A stretch of 24,000 nt of DNA from Methylophilus sp. (GTDB taxonomy: Bacteria; Pseudomonadota; Gammaproteobacteria; Burkholderiales; Methylophilaceae): positions 970,108-994,107 of the forward strand of contig NZ_JBQMUL010000002.1 in NCBI RefSeq assembly GCF_052173275.1. The letters are read 5' to 3'. The translations under genes were made by a program, and so were the position numbers. The notes under the pieces are model-generated. The model was not told the origin of the DNA. It did not search any database and saw only the letters and a list, made by a program, of their open reading frames with translations. The first letter of the stretch is position 1. Each line of letters opens with the position of its first letter. This document shows, one piece after another, positions 1,583-22,331 of this stretch.

Positions 1583-2142
1583 GGCAACCCCTGTGGCAGG
1601 TTACTGATCTCCAGGCCAGACGGATCCTGGGGCACGGTCTTGATATGCCTGGGGATCACGCCATGCAGCAGGCTCAGGTTGAATTTGGCTGCCTGGTTGT
1701 GCGGGTCAAGCTTTAACGCCTGCTCATACGAAGCACGCGCCTGCAGATAATCGAACTTTGCCTGTTCCTGAATCGCACCGTCTGCCTCTACCAGGCGTTG
1801 CAAACCGGAGCGGAACAGGTGATTACCGATATTGAAATGGATCTGCGATTTCAGCAGGGGGTCAGGCTCGAACACTTGCTCATCCTGCTTTTTAGGTGCT
1901 TCCAGCAATTGCCCGAAATTCTGGCTGGCATGCTTGAAGTTACCGGTTTTCCCTTGCTGGTAAGCATCGGCAAATTTACGGTGGAAGGCAAACTGGTCAC
2001 CTTCCAGCACCTCGCCCCTTTGCAGAATGCTGTTGGCAGAGGCGATCTTATTCACCTGGAAACCTTCGTACACAGTGCCGACCAGCCCGACGAACAACAA
2101 TAGTCCCAGTACCTGGTTTTTGCGCGCTATATGGTTTTTCAT
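1579..2142 (-). CDS. TPR-like membrane-anchored protein, MxaK-like
   Basis: 187-aa ORF with an N-terminal TM helix (VLGLLLFVGLVGTV) and a TPR-like segment (ARASYEQALKLDPHNQAAKFNLSLL). It has ATGA-type 4-nt overlaps with both neighbours. Confidence 0.6.
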   Translation of the reverse strand: MKNHIARKNQVLGLLLFVGLVGTVYEGFQVNKIASANSILQRGEVLEGDQFAFHRKFADAYQQGKTGNFKHASQNFGQLLEAPKKQDEQVFEPDPLLKSQIHFNIGNHLFRSGLQRLVEADGAIQEQAKFDYLQARASYEQALKLDPHNQAAKFNLSLLHGVIPRHIKTVPQDPSGLEISNLPQGLP

Positions 2143-3104: not shown

Positions 3105-4078
3105 GCCACGCCCCGCTCGCAATCACGCAGCTGTTTGCTGAGTTGCACCAGTTGCGCGATCACCTGCTGGCTGTCGCGTGTTTTAACGTCATATAAAGAC
3201 TGATTGGACGCTTCAAAGAATTGCGTGATCTCGCTTTGCATGCCTTTAAAACCAGGGCGCAAACGCATAAATTCTTCGATATCCCGCGCAAAAATGTTCG
3301 CGCCATAATGCTGGTTAAAAGCTTGATGCAGATACACCAGTGCTTTTTTCTCTTCCACCGCCGTTTTTGGTTTGGATGATTTTGCCAGGCGTTTGAGCTG
3401 GCGATGGGCGCGGGCAAAAGCACCGCCCATAAACGGTAACCATTGCCCATCGGCATTGATATAAAGCAAGCCCGCCAGGCTGGCGACCAGCAAGGTGACA
3501 AATAACCCCAGGCGTTGCTCATCGGCACGGCTTACGATCAGTGGCGTTTTAAATTCCGGCAGCAGGTTCTTCTTGGCGGTGGCAGTACCGCCTGTGACCA
3601 AAGGTGAAAACCAGAAGCCCCAGGCAGGCACTTCAACTGTCGTTGCCGTTGCCCCGGTAAATGCGAGTTTCTCAGCCGGTAAATGCATCACACTCGGGTA
3701 AGTGCTGACAGCAAATACCTGGTAACTGAGTTGCAGGGTGTATTGAGTATGGTCAGATTGCGGCTTGGTTTGTAGGGCCACATCGACCAACTCAATGCCG
3801 TCATGCTTGCTGCCTTTTTTAGGCAAGGCATTGTCGGCCAGTGTATACGCTGTTGGCGCATCGACCACCACCGTTCTGCTCAGTACATCGCCAATATGCA
3901 CGCCATTGGTAGAAGGCGGATTGGTCACTGTCACCACTGGTGCCGATGTCACCGAAGTGCTGGCAGGTGGCGCGGCCTCTTCTGCCACCACGATACTGGC
4001 GGTGCCTAATAAGCTGGCGACTAGCACCAGGCGTTGCAGCGCCTGGCGGTTCGTCTGGTATGAAATCTGTTTTAGCAT
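3101..4078 (-). CDS. Signal-peptide/TM protein in the MxaA position of the operon
   Basis: 325-aa ORF with a signal-like N-terminus (LVLVASLLGTASIVVA/EE) and one internal TM helix (LGLFVTLLVASLAGLLYI). I recognised no catalytic motif. The call rests on its position between the DUF58 and vWA genes. Confidence 0.5.
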   Translation of the reverse strand: MLKQISYQTNRQALQRLVLVASLLGTASIVVAEEAAPPASTSVTSAPVVTVTNPPSTNGVHIGDVLSRTVVVDAPTAYTLADNALPKKGSKHDGIELVDVALQTKPQSDHTQYTLQLSYQVFAVSTYPSVMHLPAEKLAFTGATATTVEVPAWGFWFSPLVTGGTATAKKNLLPEFKTPLIVSRADEQRLGLFVTLLVASLAGLLYINADGQWLPFMGGAFARAHRQLKRLAKSSKPKTAVEEKKALVYLHQAFNQHYGANIFARDIEEFMRLRPGFKGMQSEITQFFEASNQSLYDVKTRDSQQVIAQLVQLSKQLRDCERGVA

Positions 4079-4136
4079 AATTGTATATTTCGCTCGGTTA
4101 ACTGGTGATCACTATTTGCTTTTCACGCTGTTTGGG

Positions 4137-5045
4137 TCACATGGCTTGTTCAAAATAATGCGTCATCAGCTCTGGCCGGTAGTCACCGTGCATAAACAGC
4201 GCCGGACTATCAAAACGCAAAAACAAGGCTTCCAGCGCATGCCTGCGTGCATTAAATGCAGCTAGGAATTTTGCTTTCACTTCGCTGCGGAAAAACAGCG
4301 TACGGTTAAGACCGGTTTCGAGATCTATCATGGTGCCAAAGCCAAACTTGGGCAGTTTTTTGTATTCCTCGTCATCCCATAGCACGATAGGAATGACCTT
4401 ATGCGCCGACATCGCCAGCAAGGTTTTTTCTATCAGGCTCAGAGGCATATGAAAGTCTGAAATCCAGAACACCAGCGCACGCGTCTGGCCGAGGAAATTG
4501 GGCACATCAGTCACGCCCTCCACGCCTATGCGCAAATGCCGGTAGTCATGCAACAAGGCAATGGCGGCTTTACTCTGGTGCAAATTGCGGCTTAACGGCA
4601 AGGTGAAATCTTCGATCACCTGCTGGTTATAGCCAATAAACCCGAACAGATCACCCGCGTTGTAGGCCGAATTCGCCACCGCGGTGGCAATCTCGATCGC
4701 AGTATCCAGCTTGCGCTTGCGCCCACTGAATTGCATGGAGCTGGACAAATCACACACAGCGTAAATAGGCGTGGTGCTGTCCTGGTTAAACTGCCGCACC
4801 TGCACTTGCTCAAACGGGTCACGTATGGTCTGACGCAAATCCATGCGCCGCGCATCCGGGTAATCGACCAGGTTGACGGTACCACGGTAATCCGAGCCCA
4901 GGCCACGCTGGGTACCGGCATGATCACCCAGTTGTATGCTGTCCGATTTCCAGCCGATCACATACTCGAACGGCCGCGCATAGCTCGCATCGTCATACTG
5001 CCCGGCTGGCTGCTTATCCGCTTTTTTGATGAATGAACGTATCAT
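4137..5045 (-). CDS. DUF58-family (vWA-like) protein, MxaS-like
   Basis: 302-aa ORF immediately downstream of the MoxR ATPase (9-nt gap), which is the canonical MoxR-DUF58 pairing. It has a DxSxS-like motif (AVCDLSSSMQF). Confidence 0.7.
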   Translation of the reverse strand: MIRSFIKKADKQPAGQYDDASYARPFEYVIGWKSDSIQLGDHAGTQRGLGSDYRGTVNLVDYPDARRMDLRQTIRDPFEQVQVRQFNQDSTTPIYAVCDLSSSMQFSGRKRKLDTAIEIATAVANSAYNAGDLFGFIGYNQQVIEDFTLPLSRNLHQSKAAIALLHDYRHLRIGVEGVTDVPNFLGQTRALVFWISDFHMPLSLIEKTLLAMSAHKVIPIVLWDDEEYKKLPKFGFGTMIDLETGLNRTLFFRSEVKAKFLAAFNARRHALEALFLRFDSPALFMHGDYRPELMTHYFEQAM

Positions 5046-5054
5046 TGGCTGGCT

Positions 5055-6104
5055 TTAGGCTGCTTTGCTGAAGGTCAGGCTAGGCACGGCAAGCGTGCGG
5101 ATGATATTGGTCGTCAGTTCACGCGCCAGCGCCGTCCTGCGGTTTTCATAGGCCGCGTTAAACACCAGGCGGTGCGAGATCACTTCGTGGAACACGGCAT
5201 GGATATCTTCCGGATACAGGCTGTCGCGGCCATTCAGCCAGGCATTCACGCGGGCCGCTTTCATCAGCATGCCCATGCCGCGCGGGCTGGCGCCGGTCTG
5301 GATCACACGGCCGACATCCACACTGTCCATGGTCACGCCAAACTTCTCCGGGCTTTGCGTGGCATCCCACAGATCCATGGTGTACTCTTCCAGCACATCG
5401 CTGGATTTGATGTGGTCTTGCAGTAAGTCAGAAAACGCATTCAACTGGTCAAATTTCAGGATATCGCTCTCTACCTGTTGCGTCAGTTTTTCGGCATGCT
5501 GGAATTTGGTATTGAACACCAGTGACTTTTTCAGCTCGCGGTCAGACGGGATCTCGATCGGGATCTCCATCATGAACCGGTCACGCGCCGCAGAAGGGAT
5601 CTCAAACGTCTCGTTTTTTTCCACCTGGTTACGGTCAGCAAACACGATCATGTGCGGCATGCGGTATTCTTTTTTGAACGCGCTGATATGGCGCTCGGCC
5701 ATCACGCGCAGCATCAGCGCATGCACTTGTGGCCGGGCACGGTTGATCTCATTAAAGAAAAACACGGATAAGTTTTCACCCGCGCGCAGCAGCGGGCCTT
5801 CGTCAATCTGCGGCCTGCCGTCCGGGCCGAGGAAGGTATGGTAGATCAGGTCATTCGGCATCAGATCCACCGTGCCCTCGATCCGCTCGTAAGCGCCACC
5901 GATACCGCGCGCAATCGATTGCAACAAAGTGGTTTTACCGACACCGACGCCGCCATCCAGCAACACATGGCCGCGTGCAAAAATCGCAATGTTCATCAAA
6001 CGAATGGCTTTGCTTTGCCCAACAATCACCTGGTTGACCTGCTTTTCCAGGTTCAGAGCATGGTTACGCCAATCTGCCAATTGAATATCTAATGAAGCGG
6101 ACAT
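5055..6104 (-). CDS. moxR: MoxR-family AAA+ ATPase (MxaR-like)
   Basis: 349-aa ORF with Walker A GGVGVGKT (res 51-58), the MoxR-type box VFFFNEINRARPQV (Walker B reads NE, not DE) and ...SPRG... near the C-terminus. It is the first gene of a six-gene coupled operon. Confidence 0.85.
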   Translation of the reverse strand: MSASLDIQLADWRNHALNLEKQVNQVIVGQSKAIRLMNIAIFARGHVLLDGGVGVGKTTLLQSIARGIGGAYERIEGTVDLMPNDLIYHTFLGPDGRPQIDEGPLLRAGENLSVFFFNEINRARPQVHALMLRVMAERHISAFKKEYRMPHMIVFADRNQVEKNETFEIPSAARDRFMMEIPIEIPSDRELKKSLVFNTKFQHAEKLTQQVESDILKFDQLNAFSDLLQDHIKSSDVLEEYTMDLWDATQSPEKFGVTMDSVDVGRVIQTGASPRGMGMLMKAARVNAWLNGRDSLYPEDIHAVFHEVISHRLVFNAAYENRRTALARELTTNIIRTLAVPSLTFSKAA

Positions 6105-6297: not shown

Positions 6298-7764
6298 ATG
6301 CTACGTTCGTGGAGCCTTAAATTAACCATTACCGACACCTCGGGGTTACCGGTCTACCTGCAAATCGCCCAGCAAATCATGGAAGAGATCCAGCGCGGCC
6401 GCCTGGCGCCTTCGACCGCCATGCCAGGCACGCGGGAGCTGGCCGAAAAACTGCAGGTCAACCGTAAAACGGTGATCCTGGCCTATGATGAACTGATCGC
6501 CCAGGGCTGGCTGGTTTCCGAGCAGCGCCGGGGCTCGTTTGTTTCTGCCAGCCTGCCTAACTTCAATGCACAGCCGCAAACAGCCAATACCAGCAAGCAA
6601 CCCGCCAATGTGGTGGAAGCGACCAATCACCCGCTGCTGAGTTACCAATCGCCGGTCGATGGCGTGATCGACTTTAATGACGGCATCCCCGATGCGCGAC
6701 TGATCCCGTTCAATATCCTGTCGCGCGCATTCAGGCATGCACTCATAGGTTCCAGCAAAGGCAAAAGCCTGGGGTACGGCGACCCGCGCGGCACACTGGC
6801 GTTACGGCAATCCATCGCCACCATGCTGAATATGGAAAGAGGCCTGAGTGTCGCGATCGACCAGATCTGTATCGCGCGCGGCAGCCAGATGGGTATTTTC
6901 CTGGCGGCGCGTGTACTCACCAGACCTAATGACAATATCGTGGTCGAGCAGCTCAGCTACCCGGCGGCAAAAGAAGCCTTCAGGTCTTGCGGCGCCAACA
7001 TCCTCACTGTCGGGCAAGACAAACACGGCATCGATGTCACCGCGCTGGAAAAACTCTGCCAGCAACAGCCTATACGCGCTATTTATGTCACGCCACACCA
7101 TCAATTCCCCACCACCGTGATCATGACTGCCGAGCGGCGCCTGAAACTGCTGATGCTGGCCGAGCAATACGACTTCACCATTGTGGAAGACGACTACGAC
7201 CACGAATTCCACTTCTCGCACCACCCTGTGTTTCCGCTGGCCAGCACCAACCACGGCGGCCGTGTCATGTATGTAGGTTCACTCTCCAAAGTGCTGGCAC
7301 CCGGTTTACGCGTAGGCTACCTGGTGGCAACCCCAGGCCTGATAGACCGCTGCGCTAAAGAGGTCATGCTGATAGACCGTCAAGGTAATTCCATCACTGA
7401 GCTGGCCGTGGCCGAGCTCATGGATTCCGGCGAAATCAAACGCCATATCCGCCGGACATTCAAAGTGTATAACGAGCGCCGTAACCTGCTGATCGCGCTG
7501 ATTAATCAGGAATTGAAACAGTACGTGACCTTTGATGCGCCAGATGGTGGCCTTGCCATCTGGCTACGGCTAAAGGAAGGTATAGACGTGGAGGCTGTCT
7601 CGGCACAAGGGTTAAAACATCAGGTACGCATCCTGCCCGGCACCCTGTTTTCAGAATCCGAACAAAGCGTGCATGCAATCAGGCTGGGCTTTGGCAGTTT
7701 GACGACCGCTGAATTGGAAAAAGGGGTGTTGGCATTGAAAGCGGCGTTTCAAGCAACGCTGTAG
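6298..7764 (+). CDS. MocR/GabR-type transcriptional regulator (GntR wHTH + PLP aminotransferase-like domain)
   Basis: 488 aa. It has an N-terminal GntR HTH (GTRELAEKLQVNRKTVILAYDELIAQGWL) and a C-terminal fold-type I aminotransferase-like domain with a PLP-lysine motif (SLSKVLAPGLRVGY). It is divergent from moxR. Confidence 0.85.
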   Translation: MLRSWSLKLTITDTSGLPVYLQIAQQIMEEIQRGRLAPSTAMPGTRELAEKLQVNRKTVILAYDELIAQGWLVSEQRRGSFVSASLPNFNAQPQTANTSKQPANVVEATNHPLLSYQSPVDGVIDFNDGIPDARLIPFNILSRAFRHALIGSSKGKSLGYGDPRGTLALRQSIATMLNMERGLSVAIDQICIARGSQMGIFLAARVLTRPNDNIVVEQLSYPAAKEAFRSCGANILTVGQDKHGIDVTALEKLCQQQPIRAIYVTPHHQFPTTVIMTAERRLKLLMLAEQYDFTIVEDDYDHEFHFSHHPVFPLASTNHGGRVMYVGSLSKVLAPGLRVGYLVATPGLIDRCAKEVMLIDRQGNSITELAVAELMDSGEIKRHIRRTFKVYNERRNLLIALINQELKQYVTFDAPDGGLAIWLRLKEGIDVEAVSAQGLKHQVRILPGTLFSESEQSVHAIRLGFGSLTTAELEKGVLALKAAFQATL

Positions 7765-7843
7765 CGCAAGCGCTAAGAGAATTAGTTTTTATTGCTTTTT
7801 GCAGCCAGACACCAATAAAGCAGGGGATAAAGCCTGGAGCGCT

Positions 7844-9292
7844 TTATGCCTGCTGTGGCTGCGCGTCGGATGACAACATCTCGCAGGCTATCGCCCCCAC
7901 ATCACGCACCGCCTGCTCAATGGCTAATGTCCACAGATGGCTGAAATTCAGCCGGATATAGTGGGTGAGGTCTTTTTTGAGGGAAAAAATAGTGCCGGGT
8001 GCGACCGTGATGCCGTTGTCGATAGCGGCCCTGTACAACGTAAGTGCATCCAGCGCTGGTGGCAGTTTGACCCAGATCACGTAGCCGCCTTTGGGTTCTG
8101 AAAGCTGCGTGCCCGCCGGGAAGCTTTGCTCGATCACGTTGCGCATCAACACATAATTCGAGCGCAAGGTATGCCGCAACTGCTTGAGGTGTTGTTCAAA
8201 ACTGTCGCGCTGCATAAATTTGGCAATCGCGATCTGCGGTGCAGAAGTCAGCGACAGGCTGTTGAGGAACATCAGTTGTTCCACTTGCTGGCGATAGCGC
8301 CCGGCGCTGGTCCAGCCAACGCGATAGCCAGGCGCCAGTGATTTGGAGAACGACGAGCAATGCAGCACCATGCCGGTTTTATCATAGGCTTTGGCCGGTA
8401 ACGGCGGCTCATCACTGAAATACAGCTCGCTGTAGACATCGTCTTCAATCAGCGGGATTTCCTGCTCGGCCAAAAACGCCACTAAGGCCTGCTTTTTAGC
8501 GTCCGGCATCACAAAACCAAGCGGGTTCTGAAAGTTGCTGGTGAGGATCACGGCCGCAATACGCACCTGGCCGGTCATGACACGCAAGGCTTGCAGGTCT
8601 ATGCCGGATTCCGGGTCAGTCGCCACTTCAGCCACTTTCATGCCCAGGCGTTCCACCGTGTGCGCCAGTGCGTAATAGCCGGGCGACTCCATGGCTATGA
8701 TATCGCCAGCCTTGGCCACGGCCTGCAAACACAGCGTGATCGCTTCAGTTGCGCCATGCGTGATGACAATATCGTCCGGCGAGACATCCATGCCATTGGC
8801 CAAATAGCGGCGCGCGATCTGCTGGCGCAGCATTTCGTTGCCGGGCGGCAGGTCACTCAGCACGCCCCACTCGCCCTGGTCATCCGTCAGGGCTTTTTCA
8901 TACTGGTGTATCTTTCTGAGCGGGAACAGTTGCGGGTCGGGGAAAGGCGAGCCTAGCGGCACGGTGCCGAATTCGCGGATGGATTTAAGGGTAGTCAGCA
9001 CCAGCCGGCTGGCATCCACTTCAGATAGATTGATATCTTTGGCAAGTGGCGAGGCGTGTTTTTGCTGCAGGCGTTTGCGCAGCGTGACATAGTAACCGGA
9101 TTGCGGATGGCTGCTGATCACGCCTTCCTGCTCCAGCAACAGATAGCTGCGCAACACGGTGCTGATGCTGAGGCCATATTTCTGGCTGGCCTGGCGTACC
9201 GAGAAAATCCTGTCTCCTGGCCGTAAAACGCCTTCATCGATCATTGCGCGTATGCGGGCGGCAAACGAGACATAAAGCTTCATGGTGGCCAA
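7844..9292 (-). CDS. MocR/GabR-type transcriptional regulator (second copy, divergent sequence)
   Basis: 482 aa. It has a GntR HTH (SVRQASQKYGLSISTVLRSYLLLEQEGVI) and an aminotransferase-like domain with SFSKSLAPGYRVGW (PLP Lys retained). Confidence 0.85.
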   Translation of the reverse strand: MATMKLYVSFAARIRAMIDEGVLRPGDRIFSVRQASQKYGLSISTVLRSYLLLEQEGVISSHPQSGYYVTLRKRLQQKHASPLAKDINLSEVDASRLVLTTLKSIREFGTVPLGSPFPDPQLFPLRKIHQYEKALTDDQGEWGVLSDLPPGNEMLRQQIARRYLANGMDVSPDDIVITHGATEAITLCLQAVAKAGDIIAMESPGYYALAHTVERLGMKVAEVATDPESGIDLQALRVMTGQVRIAAVILTSNFQNPLGFVMPDAKKQALVAFLAEQEIPLIEDDVYSELYFSDEPPLPAKAYDKTGMVLHCSSFSKSLAPGYRVGWTSAGRYRQQVEQLMFLNSLSLTSAPQIAIAKFMQRDSFEQHLKQLRHTLRSNYVLMRNVIEQSFPAGTQLSEPKGGYVIWVKLPPALDALTLYRAAIDNGITVAPGTIFSLKKDLTHYIRLNFSHLWTLAIEQAVRDVGAIACEMLSSDAQPQQA

Positions 9293-14380: not shown

Positions 14381-15310
14381 TTATTTCTTACCTTCATAAG
14401 CATCGACAATAAAAGCCTTAGCCTTTTCTAAATCGTCAAAGGTTGAAATAGTAAATTCAATGTCACCTGTACCCCAATGTCCTATTTCGCGAACATCACG
14501 AAAATTGTCAGGGAAATTTGAATATGCTGAAGGATTAAGATGTAAAAACAGAAGAATCTTGTTTTTCTGTAACACTACTGTGGCGAAATTCTTAATGCGC
14601 TTGAAAGCAGAATAAAGCTTGAGCTCTTTCTTTTCAATATCATCACCCAAGGAAAAAATATACTCTTCAAGTGAAGATAACACCTGCATCAATTCAGGTG
14701 ACAAATCGACGATCCATTCCGCATAACTCTTATCACCGGTCTTAGTAAGCTTGGTTCCAGCTAAAACTTTGGCTGTTTTTGGGCTAATCTTATTGCTTTG
14801 ACCTGCCGAGGTTGAGTTCACCAATTCAAACAACAGCAAATCATCTTCAAATAATCTGTAGCGGATTAGCTGTATTTCGCGATTCATTTGCTGAACAGCA
14901 TGAGCATCATACTTCGTAAAATCTCCAGCAATACAGACTAAACGTGGTTGTGACCAATCGATGGTATCAGAAACTAACTGACCATACTTTTTCATGACCA
15001 AGAGTTCAAACTCAGCTTTATGATCCATTAACCAATCTAAATAAAATAAACCTTGGTTAATGACATTTTCGCCCGTCGAACGCTTGTATTCCAAAATCAC
15101 TGGACTACCATTTTCATCAATGCCTAAGCTATCAATGCGTCCAGCGTGGGTTTTGCCAGTTGAATATTCTGTTGCTAGAAATCTGACCCCTAATAATGTT
15201 TCTAGATTTGTTTCTATTAATGTTTGCAATGGCTTTTCAAGGTCCGAGGCAGACCCTGTGAGCTCCGTCGCGGCTTGATTCTTTATTTTGAAAAGTTTTA
15301 TATCGCTCAT
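14381..15310 (-). CDS. NucS/DUF91-like PD-(D/E)xK nuclease-fold protein with DUF5655-like C-terminal domain
   Basis: 309 aa. The nuclease-fold motif set is E48 ... GRID60 ... E74-Y-K76 ... Q86xxxY90 (GRIDSLGIDENGSPVILEYKRSTGENVINQGLFY). The C-terminal block KLYSAFKRIKNFATVVLQKNKILLFLHL...VREIGHWGTGDIEFTI matches my memory of DUF5655. It is the last gene of the hsd operon, 13 nt after the hsdM stop. Confidence 0.6.
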   Translation of the reverse strand: MSDIKLFKIKNQAATELTGSASDLEKPLQTLIETNLETLLGVRFLATEYSTGKTHAGRIDSLGIDENGSPVILEYKRSTGENVINQGLFYLDWLMDHKAEFELLVMKKYGQLVSDTIDWSQPRLVCIAGDFTKYDAHAVQQMNREIQLIRYRLFEDDLLLFELVNSTSAGQSNKISPKTAKVLAGTKLTKTGDKSYAEWIVDLSPELMQVLSSLEEYIFSLGDDIEKKELKLYSAFKRIKNFATVVLQKNKILLFLHLNPSAYSNFPDNFRDVREIGHWGTGDIEFTISTFDDLEKAKAFIVDAYEGKK

Positions 15311-15323
15311 GCTTAACCTGTTG

Positions 15324-16931
15324 TTAAGGTATCAAGGGTAAACCCAGTTCTTTCAAAAATTCGTTATGGCGTGTTTTGGCTTCATTAACTTTTTCTTCCG
15401 CAGCCAATAAATCTGCATTCACTTTCAGCAAGTCAATTGCCTGCTCGGCAACAGAGGTGCTGATGTACCGCGAGATATTCAGGTTGTAATCATTTTTCTC
15501 AATTTCTGCCATCGGAACACGGCGCGAGTAACGCTCTATTTCATTGCGATATTGATAGGTGCTAACAATCTGGTCGATCTGATTTTCCAGCAAGCGGTTT
15601 TGGCGTTTGCCCTTTTCAAAATGCTCGGCGGCGTTAATAAACAACACATCATCTGGCTTTTTGCAGCGCTTAAGCACCAAAATACACACTGGGATGCCCG
15701 TGGAATAAAACAGGTTGGCAGGCAAGCCTATCACGGTATCAATATGCCCATCTTTAAGCAGCTTAGTGCGTATGCGCTCTTCTGCGCCGCCACGGAATAA
15801 CACACCGTGCGGCAAAATAATCGCCATCACGCCACTCTCACTCAAAAAGTGAAAGCCATGCAGTAAAAAGGCAAAGTCTGCTGCAGATTTTGGCGCAAGG
15901 CCATAATTGGCAAATCTAAAATCTTTGCTCATTTCCTCGGTGGGTTCCCAGCGCAAACTAAAAGGTGGGTTTGCCACAATCGCATCAAACTCTACCTTAT
16001 TAGCTGGGTTGCGCTCATTGAGCATGGGCCATTCGTTATCTAGCGTGTCACCGTGAAAAATCTCAAACTCGGTATCTTTCACACCATGCAACAGCATGTT
16101 CATTCGCGCCAGGTTATAGGTGGTGATGTTTTTTTCTTGCCCGTAAAACTTGCCAATCCCATGTTCGCCCAACTGATGGCGCACATTCAGCAACAGCGAG
16201 CCAGAGCCACAGGCAAAATCCAGCACGCGTTCTATTTTGGTTTTTTTGCCTAGTGTTGGATCTTGGCTATCCAACGTCACAATGCGAGAGAGTATGGTCG
16301 AGATTTGTTGCGGGGTATAAAACTCCCCAGCCTTTTTACCAGAGCCAGCGGCAAATTGCCCAATCAAATACTCATAAGCATCGCCCAACACATCGCTACT
16401 GGTAGAAAAGTGTGCGATACCTTCGGCAATTTTAGTGATAATCGTGCACAGCTTGGCATTGCGGTCGGTGTGTGTTTTGCCCAGCTTTTCTGAGTTGAGA
16501 TTAATCTCAGAAAACAAGCCTTGGAAGGTGCTGTTGAATGACTCATTTTCAATGTAATCAAAACCCTTATCTAATGTTTCTAGCAATACTGTGTCTTGTA
16601 GCCTTGCCTGCTCAGCAATGTTGCGCCATAGATACTGCGGCTGAATCACATAATGCAGCTTACGGCGCATCTGCTTTTCAAACTCTAAATAGTCTTCTAA
16701 ATTCAGCTCATACCACTCGGTTAAAGGTGACCTTTTGTCATCTTTATCAAGTGTTGGATAGTCAGAACCTAGTTCCTTTTTTGCTGCAACCTCGTAGTTA
16801 TCTGAGAGGTAACGTAAGAACAAAAACGAGAGCATGTAGTCACGGAAATCGTCCGCGTTCATCGCGCCGCGCAATTGGTCAGCAATGCCCCATAGGGTTT
16901 TACCGAGTTGATTTAATTCTTCTTGAGTCAC
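15324..16931 (-). CDS. hsdM: Type I restriction-modification system, DNA methyltransferase subunit M (N6-adenine)
   Basis: 535 aa with an HsdM_N-like N-terminus (LWGIADQLRG), AdoMet motif DFACGSGSLLL and catalytic NPPF (IVANPPFSLRW). The GTG start lies 3 nt after the upstream stop. Confidence 0.95.
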   Translation of the reverse strand: MTQEELNQLGKTLWGIADQLRGAMNADDFRDYMLSFLFLRYLSDNYEVAAKKELGSDYPTLDKDDKRSPLTEWYELNLEDYLEFEKQMRRKLHYVIQPQYLWRNIAEQARLQDTVLLETLDKGFDYIENESFNSTFQGLFSEINLNSEKLGKTHTDRNAKLCTIITKIAEGIAHFSTSSDVLGDAYEYLIGQFAAGSGKKAGEFYTPQQISTILSRIVTLDSQDPTLGKKTKIERVLDFACGSGSLLLNVRHQLGEHGIGKFYGQEKNITTYNLARMNMLLHGVKDTEFEIFHGDTLDNEWPMLNERNPANKVEFDAIVANPPFSLRWEPTEEMSKDFRFANYGLAPKSAADFAFLLHGFHFLSESGVMAIILPHGVLFRGGAEERIRTKLLKDGHIDTVIGLPANLFYSTGIPVCILVLKRCKKPDDVLFINAAEHFEKGKRQNRLLENQIDQIVSTYQYRNEIERYSRRVPMAEIEKNDYNLNISRYISTSVAEQAIDLLKVNADLLAAEEKVNEAKTRHNEFLKELGLPLIP

Positions 16932-16934
16932 TGG

Positions 16935-18014
16935 TTATTCCGCATGTAAAACAAACTTATATTTTTCTATTAGCCTATCAAATATCTCTATAAAAATAGA
17001 TTTATTATCTGGCTGCATAATATCAGATTGATGGTAATAGATTTTCTGATGAGATAGGGTGTTGACGATAGTTGCTACTCTATCTTTATCCGCTATACCA
17101 ATTTGCTCCAAGACATAGGAAAACTGACCGACCCCCAAAAAAGAAGCAATATTCTCAAGTGCTTGTCGTAGCAATGCAAAATGATAGGTATAAAGCTGTC
17201 CATCTTTTGCTTGTTGCAATAACTTCATGAGTTGTAAATGATACAAAAGCACATCATTTCTTGTGCTTTCTAAAGAGAGCTCATCAGCATTACGACTCAA
17301 AATATACATCTGATACTTATTGTTGTTACGCTCTTTGAACTGACTAGCTTTTTCACCTTTCGTGATCCAATCACTTAAAATCGAAAACAAGCCTAAGTGA
17401 TGGGTTGTAATAATTATTTTTCTATTTTTGAAGTGCTTATCTATTAACTCAAACAATGTAAAAGCTGTAACGAAAATATTATGGTCATCTAAACTTGAAA
17501 CAGGGTCGTCTATAAAGAAATGTTTTGATTGCTTATCTGCCCAGCCTTCAACCTCAAACAATGCTAAAAATAAACACCAAACAAAAATACGCTCCTCACC
17601 TCTTGAGATCTTAATTGGTGTCTCACTATCCCCTTTTACATAGAAAGTGACCGCATCAATACCAAGTTCGGGATTTTCATTTGTATTAAAGTAAAAGTCA
17701 TATCTTGGCTGATATGGTGCTAATTTCGCATTTACATCCTCTTCAGTGATTGAGGAATGTAGTCTATTTAAACTACTTCTCTTGACCTCAAGCTTAATAT
17801 TCTGTTCGTTGTTTTCATTATCATTATCCCAAACGAAGAGGTCCTCGCTAAAGGCATTGTAATAAACCCCTTCATGTTCGCCACTATCAGCATTTTTGCT
17901 AACATTTTTATAGGCTACAGATAATCTTGTTTTCCCCGTTGCGTTAAAGGCATAAACAAGAATGATATTTTTTTCTGATTGATAAAGCTGTGTGGCAACT
18001 TGCTCTAAATTCAT
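16935..18014 (-). CDS. PrrC-like AAA_13/ABC-type ATPase, putative anticodon nuclease
   Basis: 359 aa. The motifs are Walker A A22FNATGKT29, ABC-signature-like S137RGE, Walker B FFIDD170, D-loop SSLD176, H-loop TTHH206, and a C-terminal R283-x3-E287 ... H322 triad-like pattern. It sits between hsdS and hsdM with an ATGA overlap to hsdS. Confidence 0.6.
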   Translation of the reverse strand: MNLEQVATQLYQSEKNIILVYAFNATGKTRLSVAYKNVSKNADSGEHEGVYYNAFSEDLFVWDNDNENNEQNIKLEVKRSSLNRLHSSITEEDVNAKLAPYQPRYDFYFNTNENPELGIDAVTFYVKGDSETPIKISRGEERIFVWCLFLALFEVEGWADKQSKHFFIDDPVSSLDDHNIFVTAFTLFELIDKHFKNRKIIITTHHLGLFSILSDWITKGEKASQFKERNNNKYQMYILSRNADELSLESTRNDVLLYHLQLMKLLQQAKDGQLYTYHFALLRQALENIASFLGVGQFSYVLEQIGIADKDRVATIVNTLSHQKIYYHQSDIMQPDNKSIFIEIFDRLIEKYKFVLHAE

Positions 18015-19261
18015 TGTTCAATGGCCTGCGAATCAATTGCCTTTGGGAAAAGCTGCTGCATTAAGCCTTTTTTGTGCTCTCTTAAGGATTCTAGTTTTTT
18101 AATTTGACTAGTGACTGCATCATCAATTGAGGTTAAGCAGTTAGCAATTCTTTTTTGCTCAGCATAGTCAGGCAACGGTAACAATTTCTCAGAAAATTGA
18201 AAAAAGGAAACCATTTTCCCATCTCTTATTCCCTCTATATTTTTGTTAAGGTCACGTATAAATAAATCTGTTTTGAAGTAATATTTAAAAAACAAGTCAA
18301 ATACTTCTATTTTCTTACGCAAAATAATATACGCGGGACTACAAATACCTTTGTAATTTGAGTATTCAATACCTCCCTGAAAAGACCTGAGACTTATAAT
18401 GAAGTCACCAACCTCAACTATTTTATAACTTTCAATACTTTGTTCTGTTGCAATGACTTTGTAATCAATTAGCTCCCGAGGAATTGCCCCATGTTCTTGG
18501 CTGATAGCTAAAATGGGTAAGTCTGAATTGTGTTTTTTGTTGCTTATTGGTTCGAAAATTTTATCTCCGTTCAAAAACGCCCACTCTCCATCTTCCTCAA
18601 ACTCAGAAAAACGAAGTTTGGGGACGGTTTTACCTTCAGCGGGGAAAAGTTGTTGCATCATGCCTTTTTTGTATTTTTTTAAGGCTTCAACTTTTTGGTT
18701 TTGTACGGTGATTAAATCATCAAGTGATGACAGGCAATCGGCAATTTTTTGTTGTTCTTTTGGTTCTTTGGGAACGAAAAATTTATATTTCAAAAATTTA
18801 CTGCCGTTTATTGAGTTGATTGTTGCACCTAAGTCAGCATCAACTTGGTCTTGATACGAATCTGTTTGAAACAACTGATAGACAAATTTTGCTATTGGCG
18901 AGCGAAAAACTGTCATGAATGCGCCATGTGTGCATAGCGACATTCCATCTGGTATTAACGCATTTTTTCCAATCAGTGCTTTTGAGCCATTCCTAACACA
19001 AATCAAAATATCATTTGGTTTTGCTAAGTTAGCGCCTTTAATGCTCGGCGTCACATAAACGTTATCATCAAGCGAGATTTGACCATTTTGGACGTTTGAT
19101 GATCTTAGAACTAACAAGCCACTCTCACGAACATCTTCAGGGCTATAAGTTAAACCTGAAACAAGTTTACCTAATTGATTCAGTTCTTGAGGTTTCCATT
19201 CACTGACATCTCTAAACTCAGGAAACCGCAATTTAGGCACTAATTTAATTTTCTCACTCAT
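18011..19261 (-). CDS. hsdS: Type I restriction-modification system, specificity subunit S
   Basis: 416 aa with the classic two-half architecture. PKLRF(P/S)EF..EW opens each target-recognition domain. Each half closes with a conserved helix, QQKIADCLSSLDDLI...KKGMMQQLFP in the first and QKRIANCLTSIDDAV...KKGLMQQLFP in the second. Confidence 0.95.
   Translation of the reverse strand: MSEKIKLVPKLRFPEFRDVSEWKPQELNQLGKLVSGLTYSPEDVRESGLLVLRSSNVQNGQISLDDNVYVTPSIKGANLAKPNDILICVRNGSKALIGKNALIPDGMSLCTHGAFMTVFRSPIAKFVYQLFQTDSYQDQVDADLGATINSINGSKFLKYKFFVPKEPKEQQKIADCLSSLDDLITVQNQKVEALKKYKKGMMQQLFPAEGKTVPKLRFSEFEEDGEWAFLNGDKIFEPISNKKHNSDLPILAISQEHGAIPRELIDYKVIATEQSIESYKIVEVGDFIISLRSFQGGIEYSNYKGICSPAYIILRKKIEVFDLFFKYYFKTDLFIRDLNKNIEGIRDGKMVSFFQFSEKLLPLPDYAEQKRIANCLTSIDDAVTSQIKKLESLREHKKGLMQQLFPKAIDSQAIEQ
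18045..18101. repeat. HsdS conserved-region repeat, copy 1 (C-terminal helix coding)
   Basis: About 80% identical by hand alignment to 18642-18698, which lies 597 bp (199 codons) away (GGGAAAAGyTGyTGCAT..GCCTTTTTTGT..TTAAGG). Confidence 0.8.
18642..18698. repeat. HsdS conserved-region repeat, copy 2 (central helix coding)
   Basis: This is the partner of 18045-18101. Internal direct repeats are typical of hsdS genes and are substrates for TRD shuffling. Confidence 0.8.
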
Positions 19262-22200
19262 ATGCCGCCAACCCCGAAATCTCTCTGCCTTGCGCTTGTT
19301 TTTTGAGCAGTGGCACCATATCTTCCATCAAAGCGAGCTCTTTTTGTGTACGAGCCTTCCAGCCAAGATCTTGCTCGGTAAATAGTTCACTGAGTTTGTC
19401 ACCGTCAAAAATCATGCGGTTTAAAATACCATTCACAAAGGCTTTGAGTTTTTCGAGTGTCAAGCCATGTTTCTTCGCTACTTCTGCCAACGCTTTGTTA
19501 TTCTTCTCGGCTTTAAAACGTTGTAAATCTTGGCCTATTTGTTGGTCTGTCATCACCTCACCGACTGGCAGGCTGTTGATAAATTCGATGATGGCGTCTT
19601 GCTCGTCCATCATATTAGAGTGAGATCGGATATAGTCCACCAACTGCTGGCGGGTCATTTTTTGTTTGTTGCTGTCCACCTGCGTCGATTTAGCAATCAG
19701 GCTCATGATGTAGTCGTAATCAATCACCGCCGAGGCAAACAGCACCAGTTCTAAATCAAGTTGTTCCAGATTAGCTTCGTCGACATAGCTCGCTCTTTCT
19801 TGCTCCACTTTGTTCGGGTTGGTGACTTCTTGCTGAGTTTTGAGTTGTTGGGCGGTTTCAATATAGCGGCCTCTAAAACTGCGCAAGGTGACTTCGGGCA
19901 TGAGTTGCTCGATAGTGTGTTTGTGCTCTTCTGTGAGGTCAGTGTATTGGTCGAGCTGAGTTTTAAAGCGCTGCACCTCTTTAAAGTGGTTGATAAAGCC
20001 CATTTTGGCGTTATTGCCTTTGAGGTTGCTCACTTGCTCTGGCGCACAGTCTAGGCCTTGTTTTTCCATAAATTCACCCAACTTGGTCACAGCGCTCTGC
20101 AATTTTTCGATCACTTTAGGCGCAGGGTCTACCAGCCAGATTTCACGCGCGCTGGCTTCGTCTTGTTTGCCAGAAAATAATTTAATGGCCGCATCGACTT
20201 CGGTCTCTTGGCCTCTAAAGTCGAGAATATTGCCCCATGGTTTGGTGTCGTTAAGTACGCGGTTGGTGCGTGAAAACGCTTGAATCAGGCCATGATTTTT
20301 GAGGTTTTTATCCACATACAGTGTGTTGAGATATTTTGAGTCAAAGCCTGTGAGCAGCATATCCACCACAATCACAATATCGATTTTGTTTTTGTGCGGG
20401 TAATTGGCGTATTGGTGGTCTTTAATGCGCTTTTGCACATCCTGATAGTAGGCATCAAACTCGGTAATGGTGTGGTTAGTGCCAAACTGTTGGTTATAGG
20501 CCACCATGATTGCAATAAGCGCGGCTTTTTTCTCTTCGGGCGCTTGTTGGTTGTCTTGCTGCTCAGTGGGTAAGTCTTCTTGTAGCTGTTGCACCTCAAC
20601 ATTGCCTTGAGCGGGTGGTGAAAACACACAGGCAATATTGAGCGCTTTAAAGTTTGCATCTTCGGCTTGTTTTTGCGCCTGCATTTGCGCAAACACTTTG
20701 AAATACTCAATGGCGCTGTTGATGGACGAAGTCGCCAAAATGGCATTAAAGCGACGATGGTTCGTCGCGGCATCGTGCTTTGCAAAGATTTCGTTAATCA
20801 CGGCTTGCGGGATGGGTACCTCGCTCTTTTTGGGCTTTGTATCTTCGCCTTTGTTTTTGCCAAAATAATCAATATGAAAGCTGAGGACATTTTTGTCTTC
20901 AATAGCGTTGGTAATGGTGTAAGCGTGTAGCTCGCTCTCAAACAAATCTTGTGTGGTTTTAAACGAGCCGACATTGCCATCAACCTGCACAAAGCTGGAG
21001 TTGGCGTCAAAAATAGGGGTGCCGGTAAAGCCAAACATTTGCGCTTTGGGGAAAAACTCTTTAATAGCTTTGTGGTTTTCACCAAACTGCGAGCGGTGGC
21101 ATTCGTCAAAAATAAAGGCGACGCGTTTGTCGCGTAATGGCTCTAAGCGCTCTTTATAAGTGAGCTTGCCCTTTTGCACATTCACTTGATTACGCTTGCT
21201 ATTTTCATCCAGCGCCAAGCCTAATTTTTGGATGGTGGTGACAATCACCTTATCCGCATAATCTTCGGAAAGCAGGCGGCGCACCAAGGTCTCGGTGTTG
21301 GTGTTTTCTTCTACACAGCCTTCTTGAAAGCGGTTAAATTCTTCGCGTGTTTGGCGGTCGAGGTCTTTGCGGTCAACCACAAAAAGGCATTTTTCAATGT
21401 CTGGGTTATCTTTGAGCAGCGTAGAGGCTTTAAATGAGGTGAGCGTTTTGCCACTGCCTGTGGTGTGCCAGATATAGCCATTCCCACGATTTTGGTGGAT
21501 GCACTCGACGATCTTTCTAACCGCATAAATTTGATATGGGCGCATAACCATGAGTTTTTGCTCACTGGCGACCAGTACCATATAACGGCTTATCATTTGC
21601 CCCAAGGTACATTTGACTAAGAAGACATTTGCAAAGTCATGCAAGTGCGAGATTTTATGGTTTTGCTCATCTGCTAATTGATAAATAGGCAAAAAGCGTT
21701 CATCGGCATTAAAACTGAAATGCTCGTTTTTATTGTTCGCAAAATAAAGCGTATTGCTTTGGTTGCTGACAATAAACAACTGCATAAAACACAGCAAGGT
21801 ATTGGCGTAACCATTGCCTGGGTCATTTTTGTAATGGACGATTTGTTCGATGGCTTTGCGTGGGATGACTTCAAAAGTTTTAAGCTCGATTTGCACGGTA
21901 GGAATACCGTTAATCAGCAAAATTACATCATAACGATGGTGACTATTGTGCGTATTGCACCGTAGTTGATTGATGACTTCAAAGTCGTTTTTGCACCAAT
22001 CTTTGGTATTGACCAGTGTGTAATGCAGCGGCGTGCCGTCTTCACGCTGAAAATAGTTGGTTTCACGTAACCTTTTTGCTGCTTGATAGACATCAGGGGT
22101 GATAATTTCATCACGCAGCCGTGCAAACTCAGCATTGGTTAAGTTAACACGATTGAGTGCTTCAAATTTTTGACGAAAATTGGCTTCAAGAGACTCGCGG

Positions 22201-22286
22201 TCACGAATATCCGCACGATAAGCGTACTTAAGCTCTATGAGCTTTTGAATCAAGTCTTTTTCGATTTGACTTTCAGTCGCCAACAT
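19254..22286 (-). CDS. hsdR: Type I restriction-modification system, restriction/translocase subunit R (EcoR124-like, type IC-like)
   Basis: 1010 aa. It has an N-terminal PD-(D/E)xK motif (RYD120VILLINGIPTVQIE134LK136), helicase motif I HTTGSGKT and motif II FDECH. Its stop overlaps the hsdS start by 8 nt. Confidence 0.95.
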   Translation of the reverse strand: MLATESQIEKDLIQKLIELKYAYRADIRDRESLEANFRQKFEALNRVNLTNAEFARLRDEIITPDVYQAAKRLRETNYFQREDGTPLHYTLVNTKDWCKNDFEVINQLRCNTHNSHHRYDVILLINGIPTVQIELKTFEVIPRKAIEQIVHYKNDPGNGYANTLLCFMQLFIVSNQSNTLYFANNKNEHFSFNADERFLPIYQLADEQNHKISHLHDFANVFLVKCTLGQMISRYMVLVASEQKLMVMRPYQIYAVRKIVECIHQNRGNGYIWHTTGSGKTLTSFKASTLLKDNPDIEKCLFVVDRKDLDRQTREEFNRFQEGCVEENTNTETLVRRLLSEDYADKVIVTTIQKLGLALDENSKRNQVNVQKGKLTYKERLEPLRDKRVAFIFDECHRSQFGENHKAIKEFFPKAQMFGFTGTPIFDANSSFVQVDGNVGSFKTTQDLFESELHAYTITNAIEDKNVLSFHIDYFGKNKGEDTKPKKSEVPIPQAVINEIFAKHDAATNHRRFNAILATSSINSAIEYFKVFAQMQAQKQAEDANFKALNIACVFSPPAQGNVEVQQLQEDLPTEQQDNQQAPEEKKAALIAIMVAYNQQFGTNHTITEFDAYYQDVQKRIKDHQYANYPHKNKIDIVIVVDMLLTGFDSKYLNTLYVDKNLKNHGLIQAFSRTNRVLNDTKPWGNILDFRGQETEVDAAIKLFSGKQDEASAREIWLVDPAPKVIEKLQSAVTKLGEFMEKQGLDCAPEQVSNLKGNNAKMGFINHFKEVQRFKTQLDQYTDLTEEHKHTIEQLMPEVTLRSFRGRYIETAQQLKTQQEVTNPNKVEQERASYVDEANLEQLDLELVLFASAVIDYDYIMSLIAKSTQVDSNKQKMTRQQLVDYIRSHSNMMDEQDAIIEFINSLPVGEVMTDQQIGQDLQRFKAEKNNKALAEVAKKHGLTLEKLKAFVNGILNRMIFDGDKLSELFTEQDLGWKARTQKELALMEDMVPLLKKQAQGREISGLAAYE

Positions 22287-22331
22287 TTGAGACCCTATTT
22301 AGGAAATTTATAAGCAGCGCTAATGATAAAG

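What the first reader, a model, noticed from the sequence alone, without database searches (positions are those of the whole stretch)
16935..18014. Compact PrrC-like ATPase with a conserved R-x3-E...H pattern, in a non-canonical position
The protein carries the full ABC/AAA_13 motif series: AFNATGKT, SRGE, FFIDD, SSLD and TTHH. Its C-terminal region has R283-QAL-E287 and H322 (NTLSHQ). As I recall the literature, the E. coli PrrC anticodon-nuclease residues are R320, E324 and H356 in a 396-aa protein. This ORF is 37 aa shorter, and R283/E287 map onto R320/E324 with exactly that offset (H322 maps about 3 residues off H356). That is consistent with a PrrC homologue shortened at the N-terminus. 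Two things are unusual. The Walker A motif starts with Ala and lies only about 20 residues from the N-terminus. The gene also sits between hsdS and hsdM rather than between hsdS and hsdR. If it is an anticodon nuclease, its latency control by this R-M complex and its tRNA target are unknown.
Basis: partly seen in the sequence, partly recalled or inferred. Interest (0 to 1): 0.65.

Follow-up and report, generated by a model that had tools for sequence, protein, structure and literature searches.

The report
Ordinary PrrC-type anticodon nuclease gene
This gene encodes a typical member of the PrrC family of suicide tRNA-cutting enzymes that back up a DNA restriction system against phages, and its features that looked odd (gene position, Ala-first ATP-binding motif, short length) are normal for its branch of the family.

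Summary
The ORF is real. It is a PrrC-family protein: the PADLOC PrrC profile matches at E 1.2e-103 over the full length. I recovered a 396-aa protein that matches E. coli PrrC at all 53 published mutagenised residues. Aligned to it (33% identity, E 2e-36), R283, E287 and H322 fall on R320, E324 and H356. H259, H278 and N318 fall on the essential H295, H315 and N352. The R/E/H triad is present in 94 of 95 diverse family representatives.

The three "unusual" points are not unusual:
- E. coli PrrC itself has the Walker A motif AFNGTGKT.
- Only 18 of the 37 missing residues are N-terminal; the rest are internal indels.
- The order hsdR-hsdS-prrC-hsdM holds in 10 of 12 related loci examined (one has its hsdS genes after hsdM, one contig holds no hsdR), with prrC directly upstream of hsdM in all 12. 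It is also the order of the tested Klebsiella PrrC170 system, which defends against phages and targets tRNA-Lys.

Two things remain open. The tRNA target is unknown, because the Lys-anticodon recognition peptide is absent. The Arg that aligns with the essential R349 of E. coli PrrC is Thr here, with an Arg three residues upstream.

Verdict: a new member of a known kind, of low interest.

The parts
16935..18014 (-). prrC-family gene, 359 aa plus stop codon. N-terminal ABC-type NTPase domain (about residues 1-250) and C-terminal helical nuclease domain (about residues 252-359).
   Evidence: PADLOC PrrC profile E 1.2e-103, residues 2-356. Pfam AAA_13 E 1.5e-14. 33% identity and E 2e-36 to the E. 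coli PrrC-type protein of L034. AlphaFold2 model with mean pLDDT 84.7.
17928..17951 (-). Walker A motif AFNATGKT (residues 22-29). K28, T29 and R30 correspond to the essential K46, T47 and R48 of E. coli PrrC.
   Evidence: The Ala-first form is shared with E. coli PrrC (AFNGTGKT) and with 81 of 95 representatives.
17820..17870 (-). End of the 'PrrC box', GVYYNAFSEDLFVWDND (residues 49-65). E57, W62, D63 and N64 correspond to the essential E88, W93, D94 and N95.
   Evidence: The PrrC box is described as unique to PrrC proteins in PMC1484252.
17592..17612 (-). ABC signature region KISRGEE (residues 135-141). K135 and R138 correspond to K168 and K171.
   Evidence: K171R retains toxicity in E. coli PrrC (PMC3025547).
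17478..17522 (-). Walker B and D-loop HFFIDDPVSSLDDHN (residues 165-179). D169, D170, S173, S174, D176 and D177 correspond to D215, D216, S219, S220, D222 and D223.
17397..17408 (-). H-loop TTHH (residues 203-206). T204 and H205 correspond to T250 and H251.
17154..17168 (-). R283-Q-A-L-E287. These correspond to the catalytic R320, N321 (as Gln) and E324 of E. coli PrrC.
   Evidence: R and E are each present in 94 of 95 representatives.
17049..17063 (-). N318-T-L-S-H322. These correspond to N352, S355 and H356 of E. coli PrrC.
   Evidence: H is present in 94 of 95 representatives.
17070..17081 (-). R312-V-A-T315. T315 aligns with the essential R349 of E. coli PrrC. R312 may stand in for it.
   Evidence: Among 121 close relatives, Arg is at 312 only in 97, at 315 only in 7, at both in 1 and at neither in 16.
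19254..22286 (-). hsdR, 1010 aa, type I restriction subunit with an EcoR124_C C-terminal domain. First gene of the operon.
   Evidence: Pfam hits. PADLOC REase_I PDLC03048, 1050.7 bits; the HsdR of the E. coli PrrC-type locus matches the same model best.
18011..19261 (-). hsdS, 416 aa, specificity subunit. It overlaps hsdR by 8 nt and prrC by 4 nt.
15324..16931 (-). hsdM, 535 aa, N6-adenine methyltransferase. It starts 3 nt after the prrC stop codon.
14381..15310 (-). Fifth gene of the low-GC island: PADLOC candidate defence gene PDC-S18 (NucS_C-like nuclease domain plus DUF5655). It is probably co-transcribed. It is not part of the conserved PrrC module.
   Evidence: Absent from the 12 related loci.

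Best explanation
This is a PrrC-family anticodon nuclease. It has an N-terminal ABC-type NTPase domain and a C-terminal helical, HEPN-type RNase domain. It is encoded inside a horizontally acquired type I restriction-modification operon, hsdR-hsdS-prrC-hsdM, in a Methylophilaceae chromosome.

Shown here: family membership; conservation of the NTPase motifs and of the R/E/H nuclease triad; tight, translationally coupled operon structure; and conservation of this operon across phyla.

Inferred by homology with E. coli PrrC and Klebsiella PrrC170: the protein is held inactive by binding to the Hsd complex. When a phage anti-restriction factor disables the complex, NTP-dependent activation frees the nuclease. 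[quoted passage not shown] Translation stops and the infection is aborted. The tRNA it cuts is unknown, because the Lys-anticodon recognition peptide of E. coli PrrC is absent.
For: - The PADLOC PrrC profile matches at E 1.2e-103 over residues 2-356. The next best family scores only E 2e-14.
- A 396-aa protein from metagenome locus L034 matches all 53 published E. coli PrrC residue identities and numbers. It also matches the EcoPrrC sequence printed in the supplement of PMC11555353. The window protein aligns to it at 33% identity, E 2e-36.
- In that alignment K28/T29/R30, E57, W62/D63/N64, K135/R138, D169/D170, S173/S174/D176/D177, K199 and T204/H205 fall on essential NTPase residues. H259, H278, R283, Q284, E287, N318 and H322 fall on essential nuclease residues.
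- R283, E287 and H322 are invariant in 121 close relatives, 2 E. coli relatives and 39 E. coli PrrC-type proteins. Each is present in 94 of 95 diverse representatives clustered at 50% identity.
- The genes overlap or abut: ATGA at the hsdS/prrC junction and 3 nt between prrC and hsdM.
- The order hsdR-hsdS-prrC-hsdM, with HsdR/HsdM 57-93% identical to the window's, recurs in 10 of 12 related loci: E. coli, Pseudomonas fulva, Pontibacter, Sulfurimonas, Marinarcus and metagenome contigs. In the two Chitinophagaceae loci the hsdS genes lie after hsdM, and one short contig holds no hsdR. prrC is directly upstream of hsdM in all 12.
- PrrC170, cloned as HsdR-HsdS-PrrC-HsdM, defends against T1 and T7, is toxic when expressed alone, and depletes tRNA-Lys (PMC11555353).
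- The AlphaFold2 model (pLDDT 84.7) has an N-terminal domain that matches Rad50/SMC/ABC ATPase heads.
Against: - No experiment exists on this protein or on any member of its immediate clade. The tested relatives are only about 33-34% identical (33% measured against the EcoPrrC-type protein, 34% against the enterobacterial type that PrrC170 resembles).
- The Arg that aligns with the strictly essential R349 of E. coli PrrC (the Arg of the HEPN Rx6H motif) is Thr315 here.
- N257 and E262 of E. coli PrrC are also not conserved; they align with S211 and W216.
- The HEPN fold of the C-domain could not be confirmed. The best Foldseek hit is a HEPN protein (2hsb, TM 0.50), but with E 3.2 and probability 0.25.
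- NCBIfam has no model that matches, and no related structure has been solved.
Confidence: 0.85

Rival explanations
1. It is a PrrC-fold protein whose nuclease is weakened, or is redirected to a substrate other than a tRNA anticodon loop, because the HEPN-motif arginine (R349 of E. coli PrrC) is lost. It might act as a non-catalytic RNA binder, an mRNA or rRNA nuclease, or an NTPase accessory of the R-M complex.
For: T315 aligns with R349, whose Ala, Lys and Gln mutants are all inactive in E. coli PrrC. In the close clade this column is F in 63, D in 16, N in 11 and R in 8. The LARP recognition peptide is absent.
Against: All other nuclease residues (H259, H278, R283, E287, N318, H322) are invariant in 121 close relatives, which argues for selection on an active site. 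An Arg sits at position 312 or 315 in 105 of the 121, almost mutually exclusively, as expected if the residue has moved rather than been lost. R349 is not family-wide in any case: it is R in 53 and K in 13 of 95 representatives.
Confidence: 0.1
2. It is an RloC-like or other free-standing ABC-HEPN sensor. On this view it responds to DNA damage or another signal by itself, and its place in the R-M operon is mere hitch-hiking.
For: Pfam places it only in AAA_13, a model that also matches the E. coli PrrC-type protein. These R-M operons do collect unrelated cargo genes, including RhuM, Schlafen/AlbA_2, DUF1016 and PDC-S18.
Against: It is 359 aa with a single Cys (C147), so it has no coiled-coil insert and no CxxC zinc hook, and the model shows no long coiled coil. 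The PrrC box residues are conserved. prrC lies immediately upstream of hsdM in all 12 related loci across at least three phyla, with start/stop overlap. RloC is described as rarely R-M-linked (PMC3458546 abstract).
Confidence: 0.03

Closest known systems
E. coli PrrC (EcoPrrC, 396 aa), the tRNA-Lys anticodon nuclease of the prr / EcoprrI locus
   Same: - Same two-domain architecture.
- 33% identity over nearly the full length, E 2e-36.
- Same Ala-first Walker A (AFN[GA]TGKT).
[quoted passage not shown]
- Nuclease residues H295, H315, R320, E324, N352 and H356 are all conserved.
- Embedded in a type I R-M operon whose HsdR carries the EcoR124_C domain and matches the same PADLOC REase_I model best.
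   Different: - The gene order is hsdR-hsdS-prrC-hsdM. All 20 E. coli PrrC-type loci that hold both flanking genes read hsdM ... prrC ... hsdR instead (hsdS confirmed in L034).
- HsdR and HsdM are only 31-40% identical to those of the E. coli PrrC-type loci.
- No LARP peptide (KYGDSNKSFSY).
- R349 aligns with Thr, N224/H225 are swapped to H/N, K325 is Asn.
- 18 residues shorter at the N-terminus, plus internal indels.
PrrC170 system of Klebsiella quasipneumoniae (Azam et al. 2024, PMC11555353) and its E. coli relatives (loci L001 and L002)
   Same: - Same four-gene order, HsdR-HsdS-PrrC-HsdM.
- In the related E. coli loci HsdR is 61-66% and HsdM 71-73% identical to the window's.
- The system is experimentally shown to defend against phages, and the toxin is toxic when expressed alone.
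   Different: - The PrrC proteins of that enterobacterial type are only 34% identical to the window protein.
- They keep an Arg at the R349 position.
- PrrC170 keeps a partial YGD motif, and its target is tRNA-Lys.
- The window protein's target is untested.
RloC (wobble-nucleotide-excising anticodon nuclease)
   Same: ABC-type NTPase domain fused to a related C-terminal nuclease domain. [quoted passage not shown]
   Different: RloC carries a long Rad50-like coiled coil with a zinc hook and is rarely linked to R-M (PMC3458546 abstract). The window protein is 359 aa with one Cys and no coiled coil.
Rad50/SMC heads and PtuA (Septu, retron Eco7/Ec78) ABC ATPases
   Same: The N-terminal domain of the model superposes on these ATPase heads. 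Foldseek gives E 8e-5 to 4e-3 at probability 0.75-1.0.
   Different: The resemblance is of fold only, at 11-20% identity. These proteins have no PrrC box and no PrrC nuclease domain.

Membership tests
PrrC anticodon nuclease family (broad) | Full-length match to a PrrC sequence profile, better than to any other defence ATPase family | tested here: met
   PADLOC PDLC02360 PrrC gives E 1.2e-103 and 345 bits, residues 2-356 against profile positions 20-348 of 372. The next family scores E 2.3e-14. The same model scores the E. coli PrrC-type protein at 489 bits and the E. coli R-S-C-M type at 453 bits.
PrrC anticodon nuclease family (broad) | ABC-type NTPase motifs with the essential residues K46, T47, R48, K168, K171, D215, D216, S219, S220, D222, D223, T250 and H251 | tested here: met
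   The aligned residues are K28, T29, R30, K135, R138 (K171R is tolerated), D169, D170, S173, S174, D176, D177, T204 and H205.
PrrC anticodon nuclease family (broad) | PrrC box, a motif unique to PrrC proteins (E88, W93, D94, N95 essential) | tested here: met
   E57, W62, D63 and N64 within YYNAFSEDLFVWDND. E and W are each present in 94 of 95 representatives.
PrrC anticodon nuclease family (broad) | C-terminal nuclease triad R320/E324/H356, plus H295, H315 and N352 | tested here: met
   R283, E287, H322, H259, H278 and N318. The triad is invariant in all three clades sampled, and each residue is present in 94 of 95 representatives.
PrrC anticodon nuclease family (broad) | Gene embedded in a type I R-M locus | tested here: met
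   hsdR, hsdS and hsdM flank the gene directly, with overlapping or abutting reading frames.
PrrC anticodon nuclease family (broad) | Anticodon-loop cleavage of a tRNA; silencing by the Hsd complex; activation by an anti-restriction factor | not testable with these tools
   Requires expression, tRNA-seq and phage assays. Shown only for E. coli PrrC and PrrC170.
PrrC anticodon nuclease family (broad) | HEPN fold of the C-domain with an Rx4-6H motif (Anantharaman et al. 2013, PMC3710099) | tested here: inconclusive
   The C-domain model (pLDDT 84.7, five helices) has a HEPN protein as its top PDB hit (2hsb, TM 0.50/0.45), but at E 3.2 and probability 0.25. The His is present (H322). The Arg at -7 is Thr, with an Arg at -10. 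That Arg column is R in only 53 of 95 representatives, so it does not define PrrC membership.
E. coli PrrC-type (LARP) subgroup, tRNA-Lys specific | Lys-anticodon recognising peptide KYGDSNKSFSY (residues 284-294) and the order hsdM-hsdS-prrC-hsdR | tested here: not met
   The aligned segment reads STRNDVLLY, with no YGD. The gene order is reversed relative to the 20 LARP-type loci that hold both flanking genes. The protein is therefore not filed in this subgroup.
RloC | Rad50-like coiled-coil insert with a CxxC zinc hook, and a size far larger than PrrC | tested here: not met
   359 aa, a single Cys (C147), and no long coiled coil in the model.

The most novel reading that the evidence does not exclude
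The window protein belongs to a large, cross-phylum PrrC clade (Bacteroidota, Campylobacterota, Beta- and Gammaproteobacteria). Members share at least 58% identity with the window protein and only about 33% with either characterised PrrC. The clade may cut a tRNA other than tRNA-Lys, and it may use a re-positioned active-site arginine (R-x9-H in place of R-x6-H). If so, it would be a functionally distinct PrrC subtype with a new target specificity.
Probability: 0.35. Interest if true: 0.4.

Novelty: new member of a known kind. Interest (0 to 1): 0.17.

Why it matters
It matters little beyond annotation. The locus should be labelled a PrrC / type I R-M defence system, which PADLOC's PrrC protein model already recognises. 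It adds one more example of the hsdR-hsdS-prrC-hsdM architecture that was validated for PrrC170. The open points of modest interest are the tRNA specificity of this LARP-less clade and whether an Arg one helical turn upstream can replace the 'essential' R349. Answers would help predict which phage tRNAs counter which PrrC variants.

Tried and rejected
- blastn of the gene against 5,426 complete E. coli genomes found nothing. The hsdM gene did hit, and it led to the E. coli R-S-prrC-M loci L001 and L002.
- Three weaker hsdM hits (H25, H27, H28) were inspected in search of the classical prr locus. They were unrelated type I systems without prrC.
- NCBIfam has no matching model.
- A PDB sequence search gave no relative, so no PrrC structure is available for comparison.
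Context was then obtained through the look-up of encoding contigs instead.
- Pfam on the isolated C-domain gave nothing.
- Foldseek on the C-domain model was not significant.
- No tRNA genes, Rfam matches or island-flanking direct repeats were found.
- The idea that the protein is an N-terminally truncated E. coli PrrC was rejected. There is no in-frame upstream extension, because the ORF starts at the first start codon after a stop. Close relatives have the same length of about 355-367 aa.

Full report
**Observation.** The ORF at 16935..18014 is real, lies on the minus strand and encodes 359 aa. On the minus strand the genes run as follows:
- hsdR, 22286..19254, 1010 aa, with HSDR_N, SWI2_SNF2/ResIII, T1R_D3-like and EcoR124_C domains;
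- hsdS, 19261..18011;
- this gene, 18014..16935;
- hsdM, 16931..15324;
- a fifth gene, 15310..14381.

The reading frames overlap or abut. hsdR and hsdS overlap by 8 nt. The hsdS/prrC junction is ATGA. The gap between prrC and hsdM is 3 nt, and the gap between hsdM and the fifth gene is 13 nt. The only promoter-like site in a sensible place lies just upstream of hsdR, at 22350-22323. The block from about 14.4 to 22.3 kb has 35-46% GC against 51-57% in the flanks, so it is an acquired island. Cluster mates of a flanking protein come from Methylophilus and Methylobacillus, and the source contig is 3.1 Mb. The host is therefore a Methylophilaceae chromosome.

**Identity.** The PADLOC PrrC model matches residues 2-356 at E 1.2e-103. 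The next family, PDC-S06, reaches only E 2e-14. Pfam sees only AAA_13 over residues 66-331. NCBIfam has no matching model and the PDB holds no sequence relative. Homologues are abundant: 7429 among the 8000 candidates scored, and the best 120 are 58-92% identical and 351-380 aa long (most 354-367). They come from Bacteroidota, Pseudomonas and Methylobacter, and a few are already named 'anticodon nuclease' by their sources. An exhaustive search of representatives clustered at 50% identity found 700 clusters at E<=1e-3 and 88 at E<=1e-30.

**Direct comparison with E. coli PrrC.** R320, E324 and H356 are the proposed catalytic triad of the 396-aa protein (PMC1484252). Meineke et al. list 33 essential residues (PMC3025547). 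To obtain the sequence, I scanned metagenome contigs for a back-translation of the published Lys-anticodon recognising peptide KYGDSNKSFSY. One of the 48 loci, L034, encodes a 396-aa protein that carries the right amino acid at all 53 published mutagenised positions. It also agrees with the EcoPrrC sequence printed in the supplement of PMC11555353.

BLASTP of the window protein against this protein gives 33% identity and E 2e-36 over residues 17-348. The NTPase residues correspond as follows:

| Window | E. coli PrrC |
|---|---|
| K28/T29/R30 | K46/T47/R48 |
| E57 | E88 |
| W62/D63/N64 | W93/D94/N95 |
| K135/R138 | K168/K171 |
| D169/D170 | D215/D216 |
| S173/S174/D176/D177 | S219/S220/D222/D223 |
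| K199 | K245 |
| T204/H205 | T250/H251 |

The nuclease residues correspond as follows:

| Window | E. coli PrrC |
|---|---|
| H259 | H295 |
| H278 | H315 |
| R283 | R320 |
| Q284 | N321 (reported as Asn or Gln among homologues) |
| E287 | E324 |
| N318 | N352 |
| S321 | S355 |
| H322 | H356 |

R283, E287 and H322 are invariant in 121 close relatives, 2 E. coli relatives and 39 E. coli PrrC-type proteins. Each is present in 94 of 95 diverse representatives.

**The three 'unusual' points.**

First, E. coli PrrC itself has AFNGTGKT. Among the 95 representatives the first Walker A position is Ala in 81 and Gly in 14. From general knowledge, the classical P-loop pattern is [AG]-x4-G-K-[ST].

Second, the protein is not simply cut at the N-terminus. 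The offset between the two proteins is 18 at Walker A, 31 at WDN, 33 at the signature, 46 at Walker B and the H-loop, 37 at R/E and 34 at H. The exact 37 is a sum of indels. The ORF cannot extend upstream, and about 360 aa is the normal size in this clade.

Third, gene order. Twenty loci of the E. coli PrrC type hold both flanking genes, and all read hsdM ... prrC ... hsdR, with HsdM and HsdR only 31-40% identical to the window's. For L034 the intervening hsdS was confirmed. S. mutans has the same order. By contrast, I examined 12 loci that carry a window-type or enterobacterial-type prrC:
- E. coli L001 and L002;
- Marinarcus L006;
- Sulfurimonas L007;
- metagenome L056 and L057, which carry the 92%-identical protein;
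- Pseudomonas fulva L058 and L059;
- Chitinophagaceae L060 and L061;
- Pontibacter L062;
- Methylobacter L063.

Ten of these 12 read hsdR ... hsdS ... prrC-hsdM. In the two Chitinophagaceae loci the hsdS genes lie after hsdM, and the short Methylobacter contig holds no hsdR. prrC lies directly upstream of hsdM in all 12, and HsdR/HsdM are 57-93% identical to the window's. This hsdM type covers at least 80% of the query in 83 of 5,426 complete E. coli genomes.

The arrangement is also published and tested. Azam et al. 2024 cloned 'HsdR, HsdS, PrrC, and HsdM' from Klebsiella quasipneumoniae as PrrC170, which is 35% identical to EcoPrrC. They showed defence against T1 and T7, toxicity of PrrC alone, and tRNA-Lys depletion by tRNA-seq (PMC11555353). 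Both HsdR lineages carry EcoR124_C and match the same PADLOC REase_I model best.

**Structure.** An AlphaFold2 model built on 52 sequences has mean pLDDT 84.7. Its N-terminal domain matches Rad50, SMC and ABC ATPase heads, and also PtuA of Septu and retron systems. A separate model of residues 252-359 (pLDDT 84.7) is a five-helix bundle. Its best PDB match is a HEPN-domain protein (2hsb, TM 0.50), but the match is not significant at E 3.2. This is compatible with the published HEPN assignment of the PrrC nuclease domain (PMC3710099) but does not confirm it independently.

**What differs from the characterised PrrCs.**
- The LARP peptide is absent. The aligned segment is STRNDVLLY-H, and a YGD motif occurs in only 2 of the 95 sequences in that alignment. 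Kaufmann's group already proposed that LARP-less homologues have other targets, so the target here is unknown.
- R349 of E. coli PrrC is the Arg of the HEPN Rx6H motif. It is strictly essential in yeast toxicity assays. It aligns with T315 in the window protein.
- Among the 121 close relatives, an Arg sits at position 312 only in 97, at 315 only in 7, at both in 1 and at neither in 16; 11 of those 16 have Lys at one of the two positions. This near-exclusive pattern suggests the Arg has moved one helical turn. The sequences are related, however, so the counts are not independent.
- Across the 95 diverse representatives the R349 column is R in 53, K in 13 and D in 10, so this Arg is not a family-wide requirement.
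- N224/H225 are swapped to H178/N179, and N257 and E262 are not conserved.

**Mechanism.** Shown: family membership, intact NTPase and nuclease motifs under conservation, and a conserved, translationally coupled position inside a type I R-M operon. Inferred from E. coli PrrC and PrrC170: the protein is held latent on the Hsd complex and released when a phage anti-restriction factor disables that complex. Activation depends on NTP. The nuclease then cuts an anticodon loop by transesterification, with R283 and E287 assigned the roles proposed for R320 and E324, and H322 the role proposed for H356. Translation shuts off. The tRNA target and the trigger are unknown.

**Verdict.** This is an ordinary, well-conserved PrrC-family gene in the R-S-prrC-M type of locus. 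It is a new member of a known kind. Confidence that it belongs to the PrrC family is about 0.95. Confidence that it works as a restriction-guarding anticodon nuclease is about 0.85. Interest is low.

Noticed in passing
window 14381-15310 (-): A 309-aa gene lies 13 nt after the hsdM stop codon, on the same strand and at low GC. It matches the PADLOC candidate defence family PDC-S18 (E 3.9e-140) and has a NucS_C-like nuclease domain plus DUF5655. It is absent from all 12 related R-S-prrC-M loci, so it looks like extra cargo on this island.
   Followed up: partly
window 14400-22300: The five-gene R-M/PrrC block has 35-46% GC against 51-57% in the flanks; prrC and hsdS are lowest at 35%. No tRNA gene, integrase or flanking direct repeat of 16 nt or more marks its borders. 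The left border is only 21 nt from the stop codon of a convergent GGDEF-EAL gene.
   Followed up: partly
window 18045-18160 and 18642-18757: A 116-nt direct repeat (72% identity) lies inside hsdS. It probably reflects the repeated conserved regions of the two-domain S subunit.
   Followed up: no
L007 3109-7004; L056 5067-6077; L001 1812-5596; L060 10812-15556: Related loci carry different accessory genes inside the same operon frame.
- Sulfurimonas: DUF4917, Schlafen/AlbA_2-HATPase_c_4 and RhuM between hsdS and prrC.
- The 92%-identical metagenome locus: DUF1016/YhcG between hsdR and hsdS.
- E. coli: TrlF ATPase and Schlafen/AlbA_2 between hsdR and hsdS.
- Chitinophagaceae: DUF3800 plus inverted hsdS genes next to an integrase gene, which looks like an hsdS shufflon, downstream of hsdM.

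   Followed up: partly
window 17070-17081 (residues 312-315 of the PrrC-like protein): Among 121 close relatives an Arg sits at position 312 only (97) or 315 only (7), with both in 1 and neither in 16. This looks like an active-site arginine that has moved one helical turn relative to R349 of E. coli PrrC.
   Followed up: partly
window 614-6104 (-) and 6298-9292: Upstream chromosomal genes: a MoxR-type AAA ATPase, a DUF58 protein and two VWA-domain proteins in one operon, followed by two divergent GntR/aminotransferase (MocR-type) regulators. These are unrelated to the finding.
   Followed up: no
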